From the NCBI GenBank assembly GCA_035577905.1, contig DATKAP010000095.1, positions 17,153 to 81,152 on the forward strand: DNA of 64,000 nucleotides, written 5' to 3'. The notes under the pieces are model-generated. The model was not told the DNA's origin, did not search any database, and saw only the letters and a program-made list of their open reading frames with translations. Shown piece after piece: positions 46,296-54,622 of the stretch. How positions within the stretch are numbered: position 1 is the stretch's first letter; every line of letters starts with the position of its first letter. A program made the translations under genes and the position numbers. The DNA is from Candidatus Binatia bacterium (GTDB lineage Bacteria; Acidobacteriota; Terriglobia; Terriglobales; Acidobacteriaceae).

Positions 46296-46835
46296 GAAAT
46301 GCAGACTAGCACACAGGTCGTCGGCGCGGAGTTGATCTCGCCGGTTGGATCCAGGACACGATCATGTCATAGCGGCGATTCTTGAAACCACTGATACGAC
46401 CGGCATCGATTTGCAAGGCATTCCGCACAAGGCTTACCCACATGGATTGGGCAGTCATCCACTTGCGGATTCACTCCTTACCAGCCAGACCATTTTCTTG
46501 GTACGCCGTGGCAGGCATAACTTGGGCGTTACAAGACAACTTATTGGGACAATAAGTCCTTCTTAGTGACTGGATTATGCGTGAGGTTACATGCAGCCTC
46601 ATAACTAAAAGAACGTAACTCGAAATTGTTCTCGGAATTTACATTTTTTCTATTGCAAAAAATTAGAAGTCATGGCATCTTCAGTCATCCCCTACGAAAG
46701 GACGCCCAAATTGGTGAGATTTAGGAACAAAACGCTAAGCGGGCAACATCAGCCGATTATTCGACTGAGTTGCGTATGGGCGTCGCTCCGGTCGCGCTAA
46801 CCGATCCTTCGGCGCTCTTTCCGCAAAACTAAAGT

Positions 46836-46910
46836 TTAGCTGGATGGCGCAGGCCGCGGTTCCTTCGACTGCTAATCGACTATACCGTTGCCGCTCGTTC
46901 CCCCAGCTAA
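46836..46910 (+). ncRNA. Candidate short Y-RNA-like module (module 0)
   Basis: Perfect 8-bp closing stem UUAGCUGG (46836-43) with CCAGCUAA (46903-10). The 3' strand carries CGUUCCC, as modules A/B carry GUUCC. Inner stem GCGG/CCGU. No T-arm. Confidence 0.3.
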
Positions 46911-46917
46911 CTCACTC

Positions 46918-47025
46918 GGTCAGTGGTGATTGGCCACGGATACTTCTCTGATGAAACAGCCTTCGGGCTGTGAGGTTCGACTCCTCGCGGGCGCAAGCCC
47001 TGCCGTGACCATACGTTCCCTGACC
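46918..47025 (+). ncRNA. Candidate tRNA-like Y RNA (module A, YrlA-like)
   Basis: Closing stem GGUCAG (46918-23) with CUGACC (47020-25). Second stem CACGG (46935-39) with CCGUG (47003-07). T-arm UGAGG-UUCGACU-CCUCG (46971-87). UUCG hairpin at 46957-70 and GCAA hairpin at 46989-47000. Confidence 0.55.
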
Positions 47026-47070
47026 TCGCTGTATTTGAATGTGGAAGAAATACGGCCCCTCGACAAGATT

Positions 47071-47163
47071 CAGTCAGTGGTGATATTCGCGGCAACTTCG
47101 TGGCGCGCCTGTTGACCCAGGCCGGGGTTCGAGCCCCCAACCGTGATTCGAGTTCCCTGGCTG
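47071..47163 (+). ncRNA. Candidate tRNA-like Y RNA (module B, YrlA-like)
   Basis: Closing stem CAGUCAG (47071-77) with CUGGCUG (47157-63). Second stem CGCGG (47088-92) with CCGUG (47141-45). T-arm GGGG-UUCGAGC-CCCC (47124-38). It shares UGGUGAU and GUUCC strings with module A. Confidence 0.55.
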
Positions 47164-47172
47164 CGACGTAGT

Positions 47173-47202
47173 TGCAGCGCGGGTAATTGTGCCCGCGCTG
47201 CA
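47173..47202 (+). other. Perfect 11-bp GC-rich hairpin between the Y-RNA-like modules and the rsr ribosome-binding site
   Basis: UGCAGCGCGGG (47173-83) pairs with CCCGCGCUGCA (47192-202), with an 8-nt loop UAAUUGUG. No U-tract follows. Confidence 0.6.
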
Positions 47203-47268
47203 TGAACGGGATATTAGTGCCCTTGGGATAGAGGCTGAGAATTCGCCGGTCGCGAAAGGAGGCCATCA

Positions 47269-48591
47269 ATGGCTCGACTGAACACACTGAACCTCACCTT
47301 TGGACTTCGCACGCACGAAGGAGGTCCGGCTCGGCACATTTCTCCTGAATTGCAGCTGCGGCGCTCGGTGTTGGCATGCCTGCTGTGGGAGTCGCAGTTT
47401 TATGAAGACGGGGTCGAGATCGCGGGGCGCATCGCCGAACTGGTGCCCAAGGTCGCCTGCGAGAAGGTGGCCGCGCTTGCCGTGGAGACTCGCGAGCGGA
47501 TGAAGATGCGTCACGTACCGCTCCTGCTCGTCCGCGAAATGGCGCGTCACAAGACGCACCGCGAACTGGTTTCGGAGACACTTGTTCGCGTGATTCAGCG
47601 TGCCGACGAACTCGCGGAGTTTGTCGCCATCTACTGGAAGGACGGACGTGTTCCACTTTCGGGCCAGGTTAAGAAGGGGCTCGCGGGCGCGTTCCCGAAG
47701 TTCGATGAGTATCAGCTCGCCAAGTACGATCGTGGCGGACCGATCAAACTGCGGGACGTGCTCTTTCTCTGCCACGCCAAGCCCCGTGATGAGGCTCAGG
47801 CGGGGGTGTGGAAGAAACTGATCGCGGGAACCTTGACCACGCCGGACACGTGGGAGGTCGCACTCTCCTCTGGCGCCGACAAGCGGGAGGCGTGGGAGCG
47901 TCTGCTTCGCGAGCAGAAGCTGGGCGCGCTCGCATTGCTCCGCAACCTGCGCAACATGCGTGAGGCCGCGGTCGACGAATCGCTTGTGCTGTCTGCATTG
48001 GGCTCGATGAGCACAGCGCATGTTCTTCCATTTCGCTTCCTGGCGGCGGCGCGTCATGCTCCGCAGTGGGAAGAGGCGCTTGAGCAGGCAATGCTGAAGT
48101 CTGTGGCTGCGTCCGAGAAGCTGTCGGGCAAGACCATCGTACTGGTCGACGTTTCCGGGTCGATGACGGCGCCGCTGTCTCGCCGTTCTGAGATGCAGCG
48201 CACGGATGCGGCTTATGGTTTGGCGGTACTTCTGCGCGAAATTGGAGAGAAGGTTACGGTATTTTCATTCTCCGATAACCTCGTGGAAGTGCCGGCGCGT
48301 CGTGGTTTTGCTTTGCGCGATGCCATCGACGTGTCTCAACGCCACAACGGAACCTGTCTCGGCAAGGCGGTCGACGAACTGAATGGCAAGGAGAAGTACG
48401 ACCGTCTGATCGTGATCACCGACGAGCAGGCGCATGATACTGTGCCCGCGCCGAATGGCAAGGGCTACGTGATCAACGTCGCCAGTTACAAAAACGGCGT
48501 CCGCTACGGCAAGGGGATCCATATCGACGGCTGGTCGGAGTCTGTCATCGAGTATCTCCGCGCGCTCGAGCAGACACCTTGGGTCAACTAA
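47269..48591 (+). CDS. rsr: Ro60-related TROVE domain protein with C-terminal vWA/MIDAS domain (Rsr-like)
   Basis: AAAGGAGG lies 6 nt before ATG 47269. TROVE-type N-terminus THEGGPARHISPELQLRRSVLACLLWESQFYEDG. vWA MIDAS motif IVLVDVSGSM...VITDEQAHD. Confidence 0.85.
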   Translation: MARLNTLNLTFGLRTHEGGPARHISPELQLRRSVLACLLWESQFYEDGVEIAGRIAELVPKVACEKVAALAVETRERMKMRHVPLLLVREMARHKTHRELVSETLVRVIQRADELAEFVAIYWKDGRVPLSGQVKKGLAGAFPKFDEYQLAKYDRGGPIKLRDVLFLCHAKPRDEAQAGVWKKLIAGTLTTPDTWEVALSSGADKREAWERLLREQKLGALALLRNLRNMREAAVDESLVLSALGSMSTAHVLPFRFLAAARHAPQWEEALEQAMLKSVAASEKLSGKTIVLVDVSGSMTAPLSRRSEMQRTDAAYGLAVLLREIGEKVTVFSFSDNLVEVPARRGFALRDAIDVSQRHNGTCLGKAVDELNGKEKYDRLIVITDEQAHDTVPAPNGKGYVINVASYKNGVRYGKGIHIDGWSESVIEYLRALEQTPWVN

Positions 48592-53857: not shown

Positions 53858-54545
53858 TCGAATGTCAACGTTCGAGCTTTAGTGAGACATCTGATGTGCC
53901 ATGTGGCATGGAGAAGCTCCGAGAGCTCTAGCGTAGCGGAGTGACGAGTCCCGACTGGTAGCACCAGCCAATTTTCGTGCCCGATAGTAAGAGGATCGAG
54001 CAGCGGCGACTTGTTCCAACGAGGCGTCGCGCTAGAGATCTTTTTGCCGGCAGTTTGCACTGCAAGCAGTGGCGGACGGTTGTTTCCGCCCAGTCGTGGC
54101 ACTTTAGGTACCTCCGCTGAACCGTCTGTTCCGAAAGACTCACGGCGCCAAGACTCCTTCCGAAAGAACTCATGCAATGTCCGGAACTGGTGTCGAACTT
54201 AGGCTAGTGCATTCCACAGGAGGACTCATCGACGAAGTCCGTTTTGATGTCGAAGTACTGATGGGCCGACCTTCGTCTTCAACCCGTGGAGGAACTTGCC
54301 GAGGTTCGTTCGCGCATCGAAAGCAGTGACGACACTCCCGTCATTCATAAACTCTCTATGTCGATTCGCTAGAGTGCACAGTTCCTCTCGAATCACTGTC
54401 GACGGGACCACCCGTCAATGCGGTCTCGGAGTCACGAGCCATCAAGGCCGAAATTGCCATGTTTTGGACGGTTGAGCATAAAAATCATGGTTCGAGGTGG
54501 CATCAAAGTTTGGAGGTGCTTTAGAATCAATTCTGCTGATCATGT

Positions 54546-54622
54546 CGGGGCGTAGCGCAGCCTGGTAGCGCACCTGCCTTGGGCGCAGGGGGTCGTAGGT
54601 TCAAATCCTATCGCCCCGACCA
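54546..54622 (+). tRNA. tRNA-Pro (anticodon UGG), CCA encoded
   Basis: Hand-folded cloverleaf. Acceptor CGGGGCG/CGCCCCG, D arm GCGC-AGCCTGGTA-GCGC, anticodon arm CCTGC-CTTGGGC-GCAGG, variable loop GGGTC, T arm GTAGG-TTCAAAT-CCTAT, then ACCA. Confidence 0.95.

What the first reader, a model, noticed from the sequence alone, without database searches (positions are those of the whole stretch)
46918..47163. Two tandem tRNA-like structured RNA modules directly upstream of a Ro60/TROVE gene: candidate YrlA-type Y RNAs
Seen: modules A (46918-47025) and B (47071-47163) share one architecture on the + strand. The closing stem is GGUCAG/CUGACC in A and CAGUCAG/CUGGCUG in B, so the sequence differs while pairing is kept. 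Both then carry the same 5' string UGGUGAU and the same 3' string GUUCC. A second stem follows: CACGG/CCGUG in A and CGCGG/CCGUG in B (an A-U pair replaced by G-U). Each interior holds a canonical T-arm. In A it is UGAGG-UUCGACU-CCUCG (46971-87) and in B it is GGGG-UUCGAGC-CCCC (47124-38). Both 7-nt loops fit the tRNA T-loop pattern UUCRANY. The conserved AGUGGU resembles a tRNA D-loop. Module A also has UUCG- and GCAA-capped hairpins (46957-70, 46989-47000). Established: bacterial Ro60 orthologues (Rsr; Deinococcus, Salmonella, mycobacteria) bind Y RNAs that are normally encoded next to rsr, and the YrlA class contains a tRNA-mimicking domain. Inference: these are two paralogous Y RNAs. ORF-based annotation misses them entirely, and duplication of the tRNA-like class beside rsr would be notable.
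Basis: partly seen in the sequence, partly recalled or inferred. Interest (0 to 1): 0.8.

Follow-up and report, generated by a model that had tools for sequence, protein, structure and literature searches.

The report
Y RNA-like modules beside compact Ro60 gene
The two structured RNAs are real and conserved, and are best read as shortened Y RNA-like partners of the neighbouring Ro60-type protein; they belong to a larger tandem array of such RNAs in soil Acidobacteria and phages, so this extends a known system rather than revealing a new one.

Summary
Module A (46918-47025) is conserved in 35 other Terriglobales species-level genomes and module B (47071-47163) in 24. A covariance model built only from YrlA-type RNAs of sister genomes gave three significant hits in the 64-kb window: A, B and an overlooked third module, Z (46839-46907).

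All three share one outer frame with the YrlA-type RNAs of relatives: closing stem, bulged U, GG:CC, a GGYGAAG-like motif, a second stem and YUACUUC. This frame covaries strongly across 80 bacterial and phage modules.

A and B are not YrlA in the strict sense. They keep the variable hairpin and T-arm but lack the D-arm, and they miss Rfam YrlA, Deinococcus Y RNA and tRNA.

Relatives carry Z-A-B-C-YrlA-(AAA ATPase)-YrlA-TROVE. The window lineage has deleted everything from C through the proximal YrlA, in three independent contigs.

The protein (440 aa) is not canonical Rsr. It is a compact TROVE+vWA protein closest to the Y-RNA-binding phage phiLo Ro60.

Verdict: new truncated Y RNA subfamilies, a variant of a known kind. 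RNA expression and binding are untested.

The parts
46640..46682 (+). Promoter-like block: an A/T-rich stretch, TTGCAA (46653-58), a 17-nt spacer, then TGGCATCTT (46673-81)
   Evidence: Nearly invariant in 43 Terriglobales loci. It was identified from the alignment; the generic sigma-70 scan did not call it. The transcription start is inferred, not shown.
46690..46838 (+). Conserved structured leader: GACGCCC/GGGCGUC closing helix, a covarying inner helix and hairpins. It is not a Y-like module.
   Evidence: Alignment A4 of 22 loci shows compensatory changes in the inner helix. No Rfam hit. MFE z = -0.36. A second copy precedes a BCS1-like AAA ATPase gene in L030 and L038.
46839..46907 (+). 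Module Z: a minimal hairpin-type Y RNA-like module with no T-arm. It has closing stem GCUGG/CCAGC, bulged U, GG:CC, motif GGCGCAG, second stem GGCCGCGG/CCGUUGCC and apical hairpin UCGA-CUGCUAA-UCGA.
   Evidence: Best R1 hit in the window: 31.8 bits, E = 9.5e-6. 36 homologues form cluster 2. Orthologue folds have the same outer architecture as A. The window copy has an A.C mismatch at 46844; the near-identical contig L081 has G there.
46918..47025 (+). Module A. In order:
- closing stem 46918-23/47020-25
- bulged U 46924
- GG 46925-26 : CC 47018-19
- motif GGUGAUUG
- second stem 46932-39/47003-10
- AUACUUC 46940-46
- variable hairpin 46957-70
- T-arm 46971-87
- GCAA hairpin 46989-47000
There is no D-arm.
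   Evidence: In one search, 96.4% of cells are paired and 5 pairs have changes on both sides. The variable hairpin is extended by insertions that keep pairing. R1 gives 25.9 bits, E = 2.3e-4. The weak full-length match to RF01053 is 18.4 bits.
47071..47163 (+). Module B. In order:
- closing stem 47071-77/47157-63
- bulged U 47078
- GG 47079-80 : CC 47155-56
- motif GGUGAUAU
- second stem 47087-92/47141-46
- CAACUUC 47093-99
- invariant GUGGCG
- variable hairpin 47107-22
- T-arm 47124-38
There is no acceptor-like hairpin and no D-arm.
   Evidence: In one search, 99.1% of cells are paired and 2 pairs have changes on both sides. R1 gives 23.6 bits, E = 7.6e-4. The tRNA-like mascRNA model gives a weak match of 19.2 bits.
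47173..47202 (+). 13-bp GC-rich hairpin that follows B, with no U tract. It is probably a 3' protecting, processing or termination element of the RNA array.
   Evidence: z = -5.3. A hairpin sits at this position in all 27 loci that have B, and its sequence covaries. No intrinsic terminator was called.
47242..47250 (+). Deletion scar: UUCGCCGGU, the 5' closing strand of module C / proximal YrlA, is fused to the ribosome-binding region of the TROVE gene.
   Evidence: Alignments with L013, L019 and L084. L084 carries GCCGGT both at the 5' end of its YrlA and about 20 nt before its RBS. The same junction occurs in three independent contigs, L081-L083.
47269..48591 (+). Compact (440 aa) TROVE + vWA protein with the MIDAS motif DVSGS. 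It is a Ro60 homologue of the phage phiRo60 type.
   Evidence: Pfam TROVE 56.7 bits; vWA_Ro60 26.1 bits, just below its cut-off. Full-length phmmer match to 9KOP/9L5Y, E = 1.6e-30. Not the Rsr equivalog. More than 8000 homologues, Acidobacteriota/Terriglobales where a source names them, and 40 homologues on viral contigs.

Best explanation
Z, A and B are three distinct small non-coding RNAs of the Y RNA kind.

Proposed expression (inferred): they are transcribed on the + strand, probably as one precursor from the conserved promoter and leader about 190 nt upstream of Z. They are then processed into RNAs of about 70, 108 and 93 nt.

Proposed binding (inferred): each RNA closes with a helix made from its 5' and 3' ends. 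That helix carries a bulged U, a GG:CC step and an internal loop holding a GGYGAAG-type motif. This is the local version of GNCGAAN0-1G / CGAA, the site bound by Ro60-type proteins. The motif docks the RNA on the ring-shaped TROVE/vWA protein encoded 105 nt downstream.

Proposed apical function (inferred): the apical ends differ. Z has a hairpin only, B has a variable hairpin plus T-arm, and A has a variable hairpin, a T-arm and a GNRA hairpin. These ends would present different surfaces to effectors such as PNPase, or to tRNA-recognising enzymes such as TruB, and may protect the RNA from exonucleases.

By homology, A and B are YrlA relatives that kept the variable and T arms and lost the D-arm; B also lost the acceptor-like arm.

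Shown here: conservation, strand, shared architecture, covariation of the outer helix, linkage to the TROVE gene in bacteria and phages, and the homology of the protein. Inferred: transcription, processing, protein binding and effector recruitment.
For: 1. Outer frame. Independent MFE folds of A, B, Z, C and both YrlA-type RNAs all give the same outer pattern, ((((((.((....(((.

2. Model hits in the window. R1 was built from 49 YrlA-type sequences, with no A, B or Z among them. Its only three hits below E = 1e-3 in the window are Z, A and B, all global.

3. Covariation. In 80 modules from Terriglobales and IMG/VR phage contigs the modelled helices are 94% paired, against 59% in shuffles. There are 478 cells with changes on both sides against 141 in shuffles. 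The covariation score is 0.629, against 0.147 in shuffles and <= 0.117 for slid controls. All 9 closing-helix pairs covary.

4. Strand and linkage.
- The descriptor scan gave 236 hits on the TROVE strand, 7 on the opposite strand and 6 in reversed sequence.
- All 70 phage hits and all 110 strong Terriglobales hits lie on the TROVE strand, mostly upstream of the gene.
- G.U pairs, such as the U.G at B pair 4/92 in 23 of 25 sequences, fit only the + strand.

5. Within-family conservation. Every helix is conserved with some compensatory changes, and the variable hairpin of A is extended by paired insertions.

6. Motif. The YrlA-type RNAs of sister genomes, which hit RF02553 at 28-59 bits, carry the same UGGUGAAG / UGGCGAAG motif and UUCC 3' strand.

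7. Protein. The closest solved protein, phiRo60, binds two Y-like RNAs encoded upstream of its gene through a CGAA stem-bulge, and forms ternary complexes with PNPase (PMC12135203).

8. Precedent. Multiple Y RNAs next to rsr, some with only a T-arm, are documented in M. smegmatis and D. radiodurans (PMC4201824).
Against: - There is no expression or binding data of any kind.
- The window copies depart from the motif consensus: A has GGUGAUUG, B has GGUGAUAU and Z has GGCGCAG, against GGYGAAG. In phiRo60 each single CGAA substitution costs 3-4 fold in affinity.
- B alone is not unusually stable (z = -0.9).
- Within-family covariation is thin because the sequences are 75-90% identical.
- Alignment A6 was fitted to the model, which inflates pairing.
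- The protein is remote from the experimentally studied Rsr proteins.
- Without a D-arm, the T-loops of A and B have no obvious partner for a tRNA-like elbow.
Confidence: 0.75

Rival explanations
1. The modules act in cis. They stay in the 5' leader of the TROVE mRNA and serve as autoregulatory operators: the TROVE protein binds its own leader and alters translation or stability. They would then not be free Y RNAs.
For: In the window B ends 105 nt before the start codon, and no promoter or U-tract terminator was called in between. The array and the gene are always on the same strand.
Against: In most relatives A and B lie 1.5-2 kb from the TROVE gene, with other genes in between (an AAA ATPase, and a SpoU methylase in L084). 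A strong conserved hairpin separates B from whatever follows. In M. smegmatis and D. radiodurans, upstream Y RNAs are processed from precursors into free RNAs. The two roles do not exclude each other.
Confidence: 0.1
2. The modules are decaying remnants. After the deletion that removed C, the distal YrlA, the ATPase and the proximal YrlA, the remaining Z, A and B have no function in this lineage.
For: The window lineage has no YrlA-type RNA anywhere in the 64 kb searched. The window copy of B has lost the GGUGAAG consensus, and Z has an A.C mismatch in its closing stem.
Against: All helices of A and B are intact. The differences among the three near-identical contigs fall in loops or strengthen pairs: 46971 U to C turns a U.G pair into C-G, and 46844 A to G restores a pair. 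The TROVE ORF is intact, with only 1-2 nucleotide differences among contigs. The variant motif GGUGAUUG of A is the commonest form of A, found in 18 of 39 copies.
Confidence: 0.07
3. The modules are tRNA-derived elements unrelated to the TROVE protein, such as tRNA pseudogenes, integration sites of a mobile element, or processing signals recognised by RNase P/Z.
For: Both have canonical T-arms. B gives a weak hit to the tRNA-like mascRNA model (19.2 bits). tRNA gene clusters flank the TROVE gene in L001 and L013. The protein family is common on phage contigs.
Against: ARAGORN and Rfam tRNA find nothing here. The conserved outer frame with the GGYGAAG motif is not a tRNA feature. That frame is shared with modules that have no T-arm at all (Z and C). 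The order, strand and linkage to the TROVE gene hold across bacteria and phages.
Confidence: 0.04
4. The region codes for protein: ORF 46907..47287 (-) or ORF 46930..47115 (+).
For: Both ORFs are open in the window.
Against: No reading frame spans A-B on either strand in 19 of 21 relatives. Indels of 1, 2 and 8-16 nt fall within the modules. The (-) ORF would run across the TROVE start and the deletion junction, which are specific to this lineage.
Confidence: 0.01

Closest known systems
YrlA (Rfam RF02553; Chen et al. 2014, PMC4201824; crystal structure 6CU1, bioRxiv 10.1101/312249)
   Same: - Encoded next to, and on the same strand as, a Ro60-type gene.
- The 5'/3' closing stem carries a GNCGAA-like motif on the 5' strand.
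- A conserved Y-U-A-Y element sits at the start of the variable region.
- A variable hairpin is followed by a canonical T-arm.
- Sister genomes have true YrlA-type RNAs with the same outer frame.
   Different: - No D-arm, so no D/T elbow and no complete tRNA mimic.
- B also lacks the acceptor-like stem-loop; in A it is reduced to a 4-bp GCAA hairpin.
- The motif has U (or C) at the C position.
- RF02553 gives no hit at E <= 10.
M. smegmatis YrlB and D. radiodurans RNAs a/b and Yrn1 (PMC4201824)
   Same: - They are additional Ro60-associated RNAs encoded in tandem upstream of rsr.
- They are made from a common precursor.
- Some have a T-arm but no full tRNA-like domain.
- A gives a weak full-length alignment to the Yrn1 model, sharing CACGG...CCGUGACC and the T-arm (18.4 bits).
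   Different: - The score is far below the RF01053 threshold of 80 bits.
- The phylum and the protein clade differ.
- Here up to six or seven modules from five distinct conserved families stand in a fixed order.
Thermus phage phiLo Yrl1/Yrl2 with phiRo60 (PMC12135203; PDB 9KOP, 9L5Y)
   Same: - phiRo60 is the closest solved homologue of the window protein (E = 1.6e-30, full length).
- Two Y-like RNAs are encoded directly upstream of its gene.
- Binding goes through a stem-bulge with a CGAA motif.
- Homologues on IMG/VR phage contigs carry 2-5 tandem modules of the same frame.
   Different: - The phiLo RNAs were described as simple hairpins without T-arms.
- The window protein is chromosomal, in Terriglobales, and about 60 aa shorter.
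- I did not have the Yrl1/2 sequences, so no direct RNA comparison was made.

Membership tests
Bacterial Y RNA (Ro60-associated ncRNA, general definition) | Encoded within a few kb of a Ro60/TROVE gene, on the same strand | tested here: met
   B ends 105 nt and A 243 nt upstream of the TROVE ORF, on the same strand. The same linkage holds in 80 genomes and 40 phage contigs.
Bacterial Y RNA (Ro60-associated ncRNA, general definition) | About 80-130 nt, with a long stem formed by pairing of the 5' and 3' ends | tested here: met
   A is 108 nt, B 93 nt and Z 69 nt. The closing helix covaries across 80 modules.
Bacterial Y RNA (Ro60-associated ncRNA, general definition) | Ro60-binding motif on the 5' strand (GNCGAAN0-1G; CGAA) | tested here: inconclusive
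   The family consensus is GGUGAAG. An exact GGCGAAG occurs in 10 of 91 YrlA-type copies. The window copies read GGUGAUUG (A), GGUGAUAU (B) and GGCGCAG (Z), each 1-3 positions away from the published motif.
Bacterial Y RNA (Ro60-associated ncRNA, general definition) | Stable small transcript that is physically bound by the Ro60 protein | not testable with these tools
   Needs RNA-seq or Northern blots, and co-immunoprecipitation or EMSA.
YrlA (RF02553) | Match to the family covariance model at its gathering score (69 bits) | tested here: not met
   No RF02553 hit in 46700-47300 at E <= 10, nor in the whole window at E <= 1. For comparison, the full YrlA-type RNAs of relatives reach only 28-59 bits.
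YrlA (RF02553) | T-arm with a tRNA-like T-loop | tested here: met
   A has UGAGG-UUCGACU-CCUCG and B has GGGG-UUCGAGC-CCCC. The loop sequence is nearly invariant across homologues, and the T-stem of A shows compensatory changes in two sequences while that of B varies only between G.U and G-C.
YrlA (RF02553) | D-arm 3' of the acceptor-like stem-loop, giving the D/T elbow of a tRNA mimic | tested here: not met
   In A the GCAA hairpin is followed directly by the 3' strand of the second stem. In B the T-arm is followed directly by that strand. The relatives' YrlA-type RNAs do have UAGCUCA..GG.UAGAGC at that place.
YrlA (RF02553) | [quoted passage not shown] | tested here: not met
   A has only a 4-bp GNRA hairpin at that position and B has nothing. 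The relatives' YrlA-type RNAs have 6-7 bp stems there.
Deinococcus Y RNA (RF01053) | Match to the family model at its gathering score (80 bits) | tested here: not met
   A scores 18.4 bits, E = 1.3, as a full-length alignment.
tRNA | Cloverleaf detected by ARAGORN or Rfam RF00005 | tested here: not met
   The only tRNA in the window is tRNA-Pro at 54546-54622. There is no tRNA hit in the region at E <= 10.
Rsr (canonical bacterial Ro60; NCBIfam NF041674) | Equivalog-level match of the neighbouring protein | tested here: not met
   14.6 bits against a cut-off of 900. The protein does meet Pfam TROVE (56.7 bits against 23) and matches phiRo60 over its full length.

The most novel reading that the evidence does not exclude
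Compact phiRo60-type TROVE proteins of Terriglobales and many phages may work with a fixed, graded set of three to seven different Y RNA adaptors rather than one or two. The set would include a full tRNA mimic, T-arm-only forms and hairpin-only forms. The adaptors would be made from one array under a dedicated conserved promoter and structured leader, and that promoter/leader also controls a BCS1-like AAA ATPase. The window lineage would then show that the full tRNA mimic (YrlA) and the ATPase are dispensable, and that T-arm-only adaptors are enough.
Probability: 0.3. Interest if true: 0.6.

Novelty: new variant of a known kind. Interest (0 to 1): 0.5.

Why it matters
Bacterial Y RNAs have been studied in only a handful of species. 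Why they mimic tRNA is still an open question.

This locus offers natural dissection material: a series of paralogous modules share one protein-binding frame but carry progressively fewer tRNA-like arms. It also includes a lineage that has lost the complete mimic while keeping the protein.

Current Rfam models miss these RNAs. Even the full YrlA-type copies in the relatives examined score below the gathering threshold. The modules accompany a very abundant soil protein family (more than 8000 homologues) and its phage relatives.

Covariance models for the A, B, Z and C families would improve annotation of Acidobacteria and phage genomes. They would also give defined substrates for binding and effector-recruitment experiments.

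Tried and rejected
- Rfam at gathering and at permissive thresholds: nothing usable in the region. There were only weak hints from Deinococcus_Y_RNA and mascRNA.
- ARAGORN: no tRNA in the region.
- Generic promoter/terminator scan: no better than shuffles. The conserved promoter-like block was seen only in the alignment.
- Folding Z-A-B as one 367-nt RNA: the MFE structure mixes strands of A and B because they share sequence, so it is uninformative.
- Cross-family test of the second stem: a module's own partners pair better than partners from other families (6.2 against 4.9 bp). The stem has a conserved CGG/CCG core, so this is weak evidence.
- PADLOC: the TROVE protein matches no defence family. 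The relatives' ATPase gives only generic AAA hits.
- R1 hit at 54214-54289 (-), E = 0.033: by eye it lies inside a short open reading frame (MNDGSVVTAFDARTNLGKFL...) and folds unremarkably (z = -1.0). I rejected it as a chance match.
- Supplementary tables of Chen 2014, and the Wolin reviews, which might list Acidobacteria or arrays, were not available.
- My first coordinates for Z (46844-46910) were off by 4-5 nt. They were corrected to 46839-46907.
Full report
OBSERVATION

- Module A (46918-47025) folds on its own into the proposed architecture (-46.6 kcal/mol, z = -3.6).
- Module B (47071-47163) gives a related fold, but as a single sequence it is not unusually stable (z = -0.9).
- The ORF 47269-48591 (+) matches Pfam TROVE (56.7 bits) and weakly matches the Ro60 vWA domain.
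- ARAGORN finds no tRNA in the region. Rfam at gathering thresholds finds no RNA family there.
- At permissive thresholds, A gives a full-length but weak match to Deinococcus_Y_RNA (18.4 bits; threshold 80).
- B gives a weak match to the tRNA-like mascRNA model (19.2 bits).
- The YrlA model RF02553 gives nothing.

CONSERVATION AND CONTEXT

The protein has more than 8000 homologues at E <= 1e-10; the 120 best are 87-100% identical and, where a source names the organism, come from Acidobacteriota/Terriglobales, including 'Ca. Sulfotelmatobacter'. I fetched 80 species-level loci.

- A recurs in 35 of them and B in 24, at 72-91% identity.
- In the relatives, A and B are not adjacent to the TROVE gene.
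- L019 reads Z - A - B - YrlA - TROVE.
- L013 reads Z - A - B - hairpin - C - YrlA - (BCS1-like AAA ATPase) - YrlA - TROVE.
- The YrlA-type elements hit RF02553 at 28-59 bits, below the gathering score of 69.

All these elements share one frame. It consists of a 5-7 bp closing stem, a bulged U, GG paired to the CC of a 3' UUCC, a 5' internal-loop motif UGA(A/U), a second stem, and (A/C/U)UACUUC.

I wrote a simple descriptor of this frame and scanned 505 kb of loci.

- It found 236 instances on the TROVE strand.
- It found 7 on the opposite strand.
- It found 6 in reversed sequence.

The instances cluster into five families:

- YrlA-type: n = 91, with T-arm and D-arm.
- A: n = 39.
- Z: n = 36, 63-81 nt, no T-arm.
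- B: n = 27.
- C: n = 26, 154-199 nt, no T-arm.

The families stand in the order Z-A-B-C-YrlA-YrlA.

HOMOLOGY TEST THAT IS NOT CIRCULAR

I built a covariance model, R1, from 49 YrlA-type sequences of sister genomes. No A, B or Z sequence was included.

- Over both strands of the 64-kb window, its only hits below E = 1e-3 are Z (31.8 bits), A (25.9 bits) and B (23.6 bits).
- All three are end-to-end alignments with interior deletions.
- The next hit (E = 0.033) appears to lie inside a short open reading frame and was rejected.

STRUCTURE

Within families the sequences are too similar for much covariation.

- A has 96.4% of cells paired and 5 pairs with changes on both sides.
- B has 99.1% of cells paired and 2 such pairs.
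- The variable hairpin of A is lengthened in several lineages by insertions that keep pairing.

Across families and phages the signal is strong. In 80 modules aligned to R1:

- The modelled helices are 94% paired, against 59% in shuffles.
- There are 478 double-sided changes, against 141 in shuffles.
- The covariation score is 0.629, against 0.147 in shuffles and <= 0.117 in slid controls.
- All nine pairs of the closing helix show 3-6 pair types.

This alignment was fitted to the model, so the pairing figures lean towards that structure.

G.U pairs, the orientation of the T-loop, and the fact that every model hit is on the + strand all fix the strand.

No reading frame spans A-B in 19 of 21 relatives. 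The overlapping ORFs are therefore not genes.

WHAT A AND B ARE

Compare A and B with the YrlA-type paralogues. In L013 the proximal copy reads: variable hairpin, T-arm, 7-bp acceptor-like stem, then D-arm UAGCUCAG..GAGC.

- A keeps YUACUUC, the variable hairpin and the T-arm. Its acceptor-like hairpin is reduced to a 4-bp GCAA hairpin. It lacks the D-arm.
- B keeps YUACUUC, an invariant GUGGCG, the variable hairpin and the T-arm, and nothing more.

So A and B are T-arm-bearing, D-arm-less relatives of YrlA. They are not YrlA by its defining features (PMC4201824; 10.1101/312249).

The motif GG(U/C)GAAG is the local form of the published GNCGAAN0-1G / CGAA Ro60-binding motif. An exact GGCGAAG occurs in 10 of 91 YrlA-type copies. 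The window copies deviate further: A reads GGUGAUUG, B reads GGUGAUAU and Z reads GGCGCAG.

THE PROTEIN

The protein is not the canonical Rsr. NCBIfam Rsr scores 14.6 bits against a cut-off of 900.

Its only solved relatives are 9KOP and 9L5Y, the Ro60 homologue of Thermus phage phiLo. The match covers the full length (E = 1.6e-30), and the MIDAS motif DVSGS is conserved.

That phage protein binds two Y-like RNAs encoded upstream of its gene. Binding goes through a CGAA stem-bulge, and the protein and RNAs form ternary complexes with host PNPase (PMC12135203).

Forty IMG/VR viral contigs encode 29-62% identical homologues.

- R1 finds 70 modules on these contigs at E <= 0.01.
- All 70 are on the TROVE strand, and most lie within 600 nt upstream of the gene.
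- There are up to five in tandem.
- They include full YrlA forms, forms with a variable hairpin plus T-arm only (analogues of B), and hairpin-only forms (analogues of Z).

Mixed arrays are thus usual for this protein clade.

THE WINDOW LINEAGE

R1 finds strong YrlA-type RNAs (E <= 1e-10) in 68 of 80 species loci and in L084. It finds none in the window or in its three near-identical contigs.

Those contigs come from three different samples. They share the 973-nt intergenic region at 98.5-100% identity.

The junction at 47242-47250 is UUCGCCGGU. This is the 5' closing strand of module C / YrlA, fused to the ribosome-binding region. A GCCGGT direct repeat in the closest full-length relative, L084, could have mediated the deletion.

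Differences among the near-identical contigs fall in loops or strengthen pairs. The TROVE ORF is intact.

OTHER PARTS OF THE UNIT

- Promoter-like block. An A/T tract, CTTGCA, a 17-nt spacer and TGGCATCTT form a nearly invariant block at 46640-46682.
- Leader. A conserved structured leader with compensatory changes follows at 46690-46838.
- Second copies of the leader. The same promoter plus leader also precedes the BCS1-like AAA ATPase gene where that gene lies elsewhere, in L030 and L038. This suggests common regulation.
- Hairpin after B. A GC-rich hairpin without a U tract follows B in all 27 loci that have B, and it covaries.

MECHANISM

The most likely mechanism is as follows (confidence 0.75).

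- One precursor is transcribed from the conserved promoter.
- It is processed into Z, A and B.
- Each RNA docks on the TROVE ring through the bulged helix and motif.
- The different apical domains (hairpin, or T-arm with or without a GNRA hairpin) recruit or exclude partners such as PNPase or tRNA-recognising enzymes, and stabilise the RNA.

Conservation, architecture, covariation, linkage and protein homology are shown. Transcription, processing, binding and effector recruitment are inferred from the studied systems.

Rival explanations and their weights:

- A cis-acting autoregulatory leader (0.10).
- Decaying remnants after the deletion (0.07).
- tRNA-derived elements unrelated to the TROVE protein (0.04).
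- Protein coding (0.01).

NOVELTY

Several Y RNAs next to a Ro60 gene are already described, and some of them have only a T-arm. Examples are M. smegmatis YrlB, D. radiodurans RNAs a/b and Yrn2, and phiLo Yrl1/2.

What I found in none of the papers I could search or read:

- The A, B, Z and C families themselves.
- Their fixed order in arrays of up to six or seven modules.
- Their link to a compact phiRo60-like protein clade in Terriglobales and phages.
- A lineage that retains only the truncated forms.

I rate this a new variant of a known kind, with interest 0.5.

Noticed in passing
window 46839-46907 (+): A third Y RNA-like module, Z, lies 10 nt upstream of A. It is hairpin-only with no T-arm and has the same closing stem / bulged U / GG:CC frame. 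It is the best hit of the YrlA-type model in the window.
   Followed up: yes
window 46690-46838 (+): A conserved structured leader with no Rfam match. It has a GACGCCC/GGGCGUC closing helix, a covarying inner helix, and two mutually exclusive hairpins (GGUCG/CGAUC and GCGCU/GGCGC) that both show compensatory changes. This may be a regulatory switch.
   Followed up: partly
window 46640-46682 (+): A nearly invariant promoter-like block in 43 loci: an A/T tract, CTTGCA, a 17-nt spacer, then TGGCATCTT. The TGGCATCTTC element is far more conserved than a typical -10 region.
   Followed up: partly
L030 2000-2180 and L038 4880-5060: Second copies of the same promoter plus leader stand in front of a gene whose product begins MTKMLE.., read by eye as the N-terminus of the BCS1-like AAA ATPase, located downstream of the TROVE gene. 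This suggests the RNA array and the ATPase are co-regulated.
   Followed up: partly
window 47173-47202 (+): A 13-bp GC hairpin with no U tract follows B (z = -5.3). A hairpin with a different, covarying sequence sits at this place in all 27 loci that have B.
   Followed up: yes
window 47242-47250 (+): A deletion scar. The 5' strand of module C / YrlA (UUCGCCGGU) is fused to the TROVE ribosome-binding region. Relative to sister genomes, this lineage has lost C, the YrlA copies and the AAA ATPase (plus a SpoU methylase relative to L084).
   Followed up: yes
L084 1630-3824; L013 990-2261: Some relatives carry extra genes between the RNA array and the proximal YrlA. L084 has a SpoU-family RNA methyltransferase, and both have a BCS1_N + AAA ATPase. 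The ATPase is split into two ORFs in L084.
   Followed up: partly
L085-L124 (IMG/VR viral contigs), mostly 2400-2980 of each locus: Forty phage contigs encode 29-62% identical compact TROVE proteins. They carry 1-5 tandem Y-like modules upstream of the gene, all on the gene's strand. The modules include full YrlA forms, T-arm-only forms and hairpin-only forms.
   Followed up: partly
L001 and L013, 3885-4344 (-): A cluster of five or six tRNA genes, including a tRNA-Sec-like hit, lies immediately downstream of the TROVE gene on the opposite strand. It is absent from the window.
   Followed up: no
L013 2265-2396 and other proximal YrlA copies: The proximal YrlA-type RNAs have a 7-bp acceptor-like stem. 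[quoted passage not shown]
   Followed up: no
window 54214-54289 (-): A marginal hit of the YrlA-type model (16.5 bits, E = 0.033). By eye it lies within a short ORF (MNDGSVVTAFDARTNLGKFL...) that looked antitoxin-like, which was not tested; the Pfam check of the neighbouring ORF failed on a coordinate error. Judged a chance match.
   Followed up: partly
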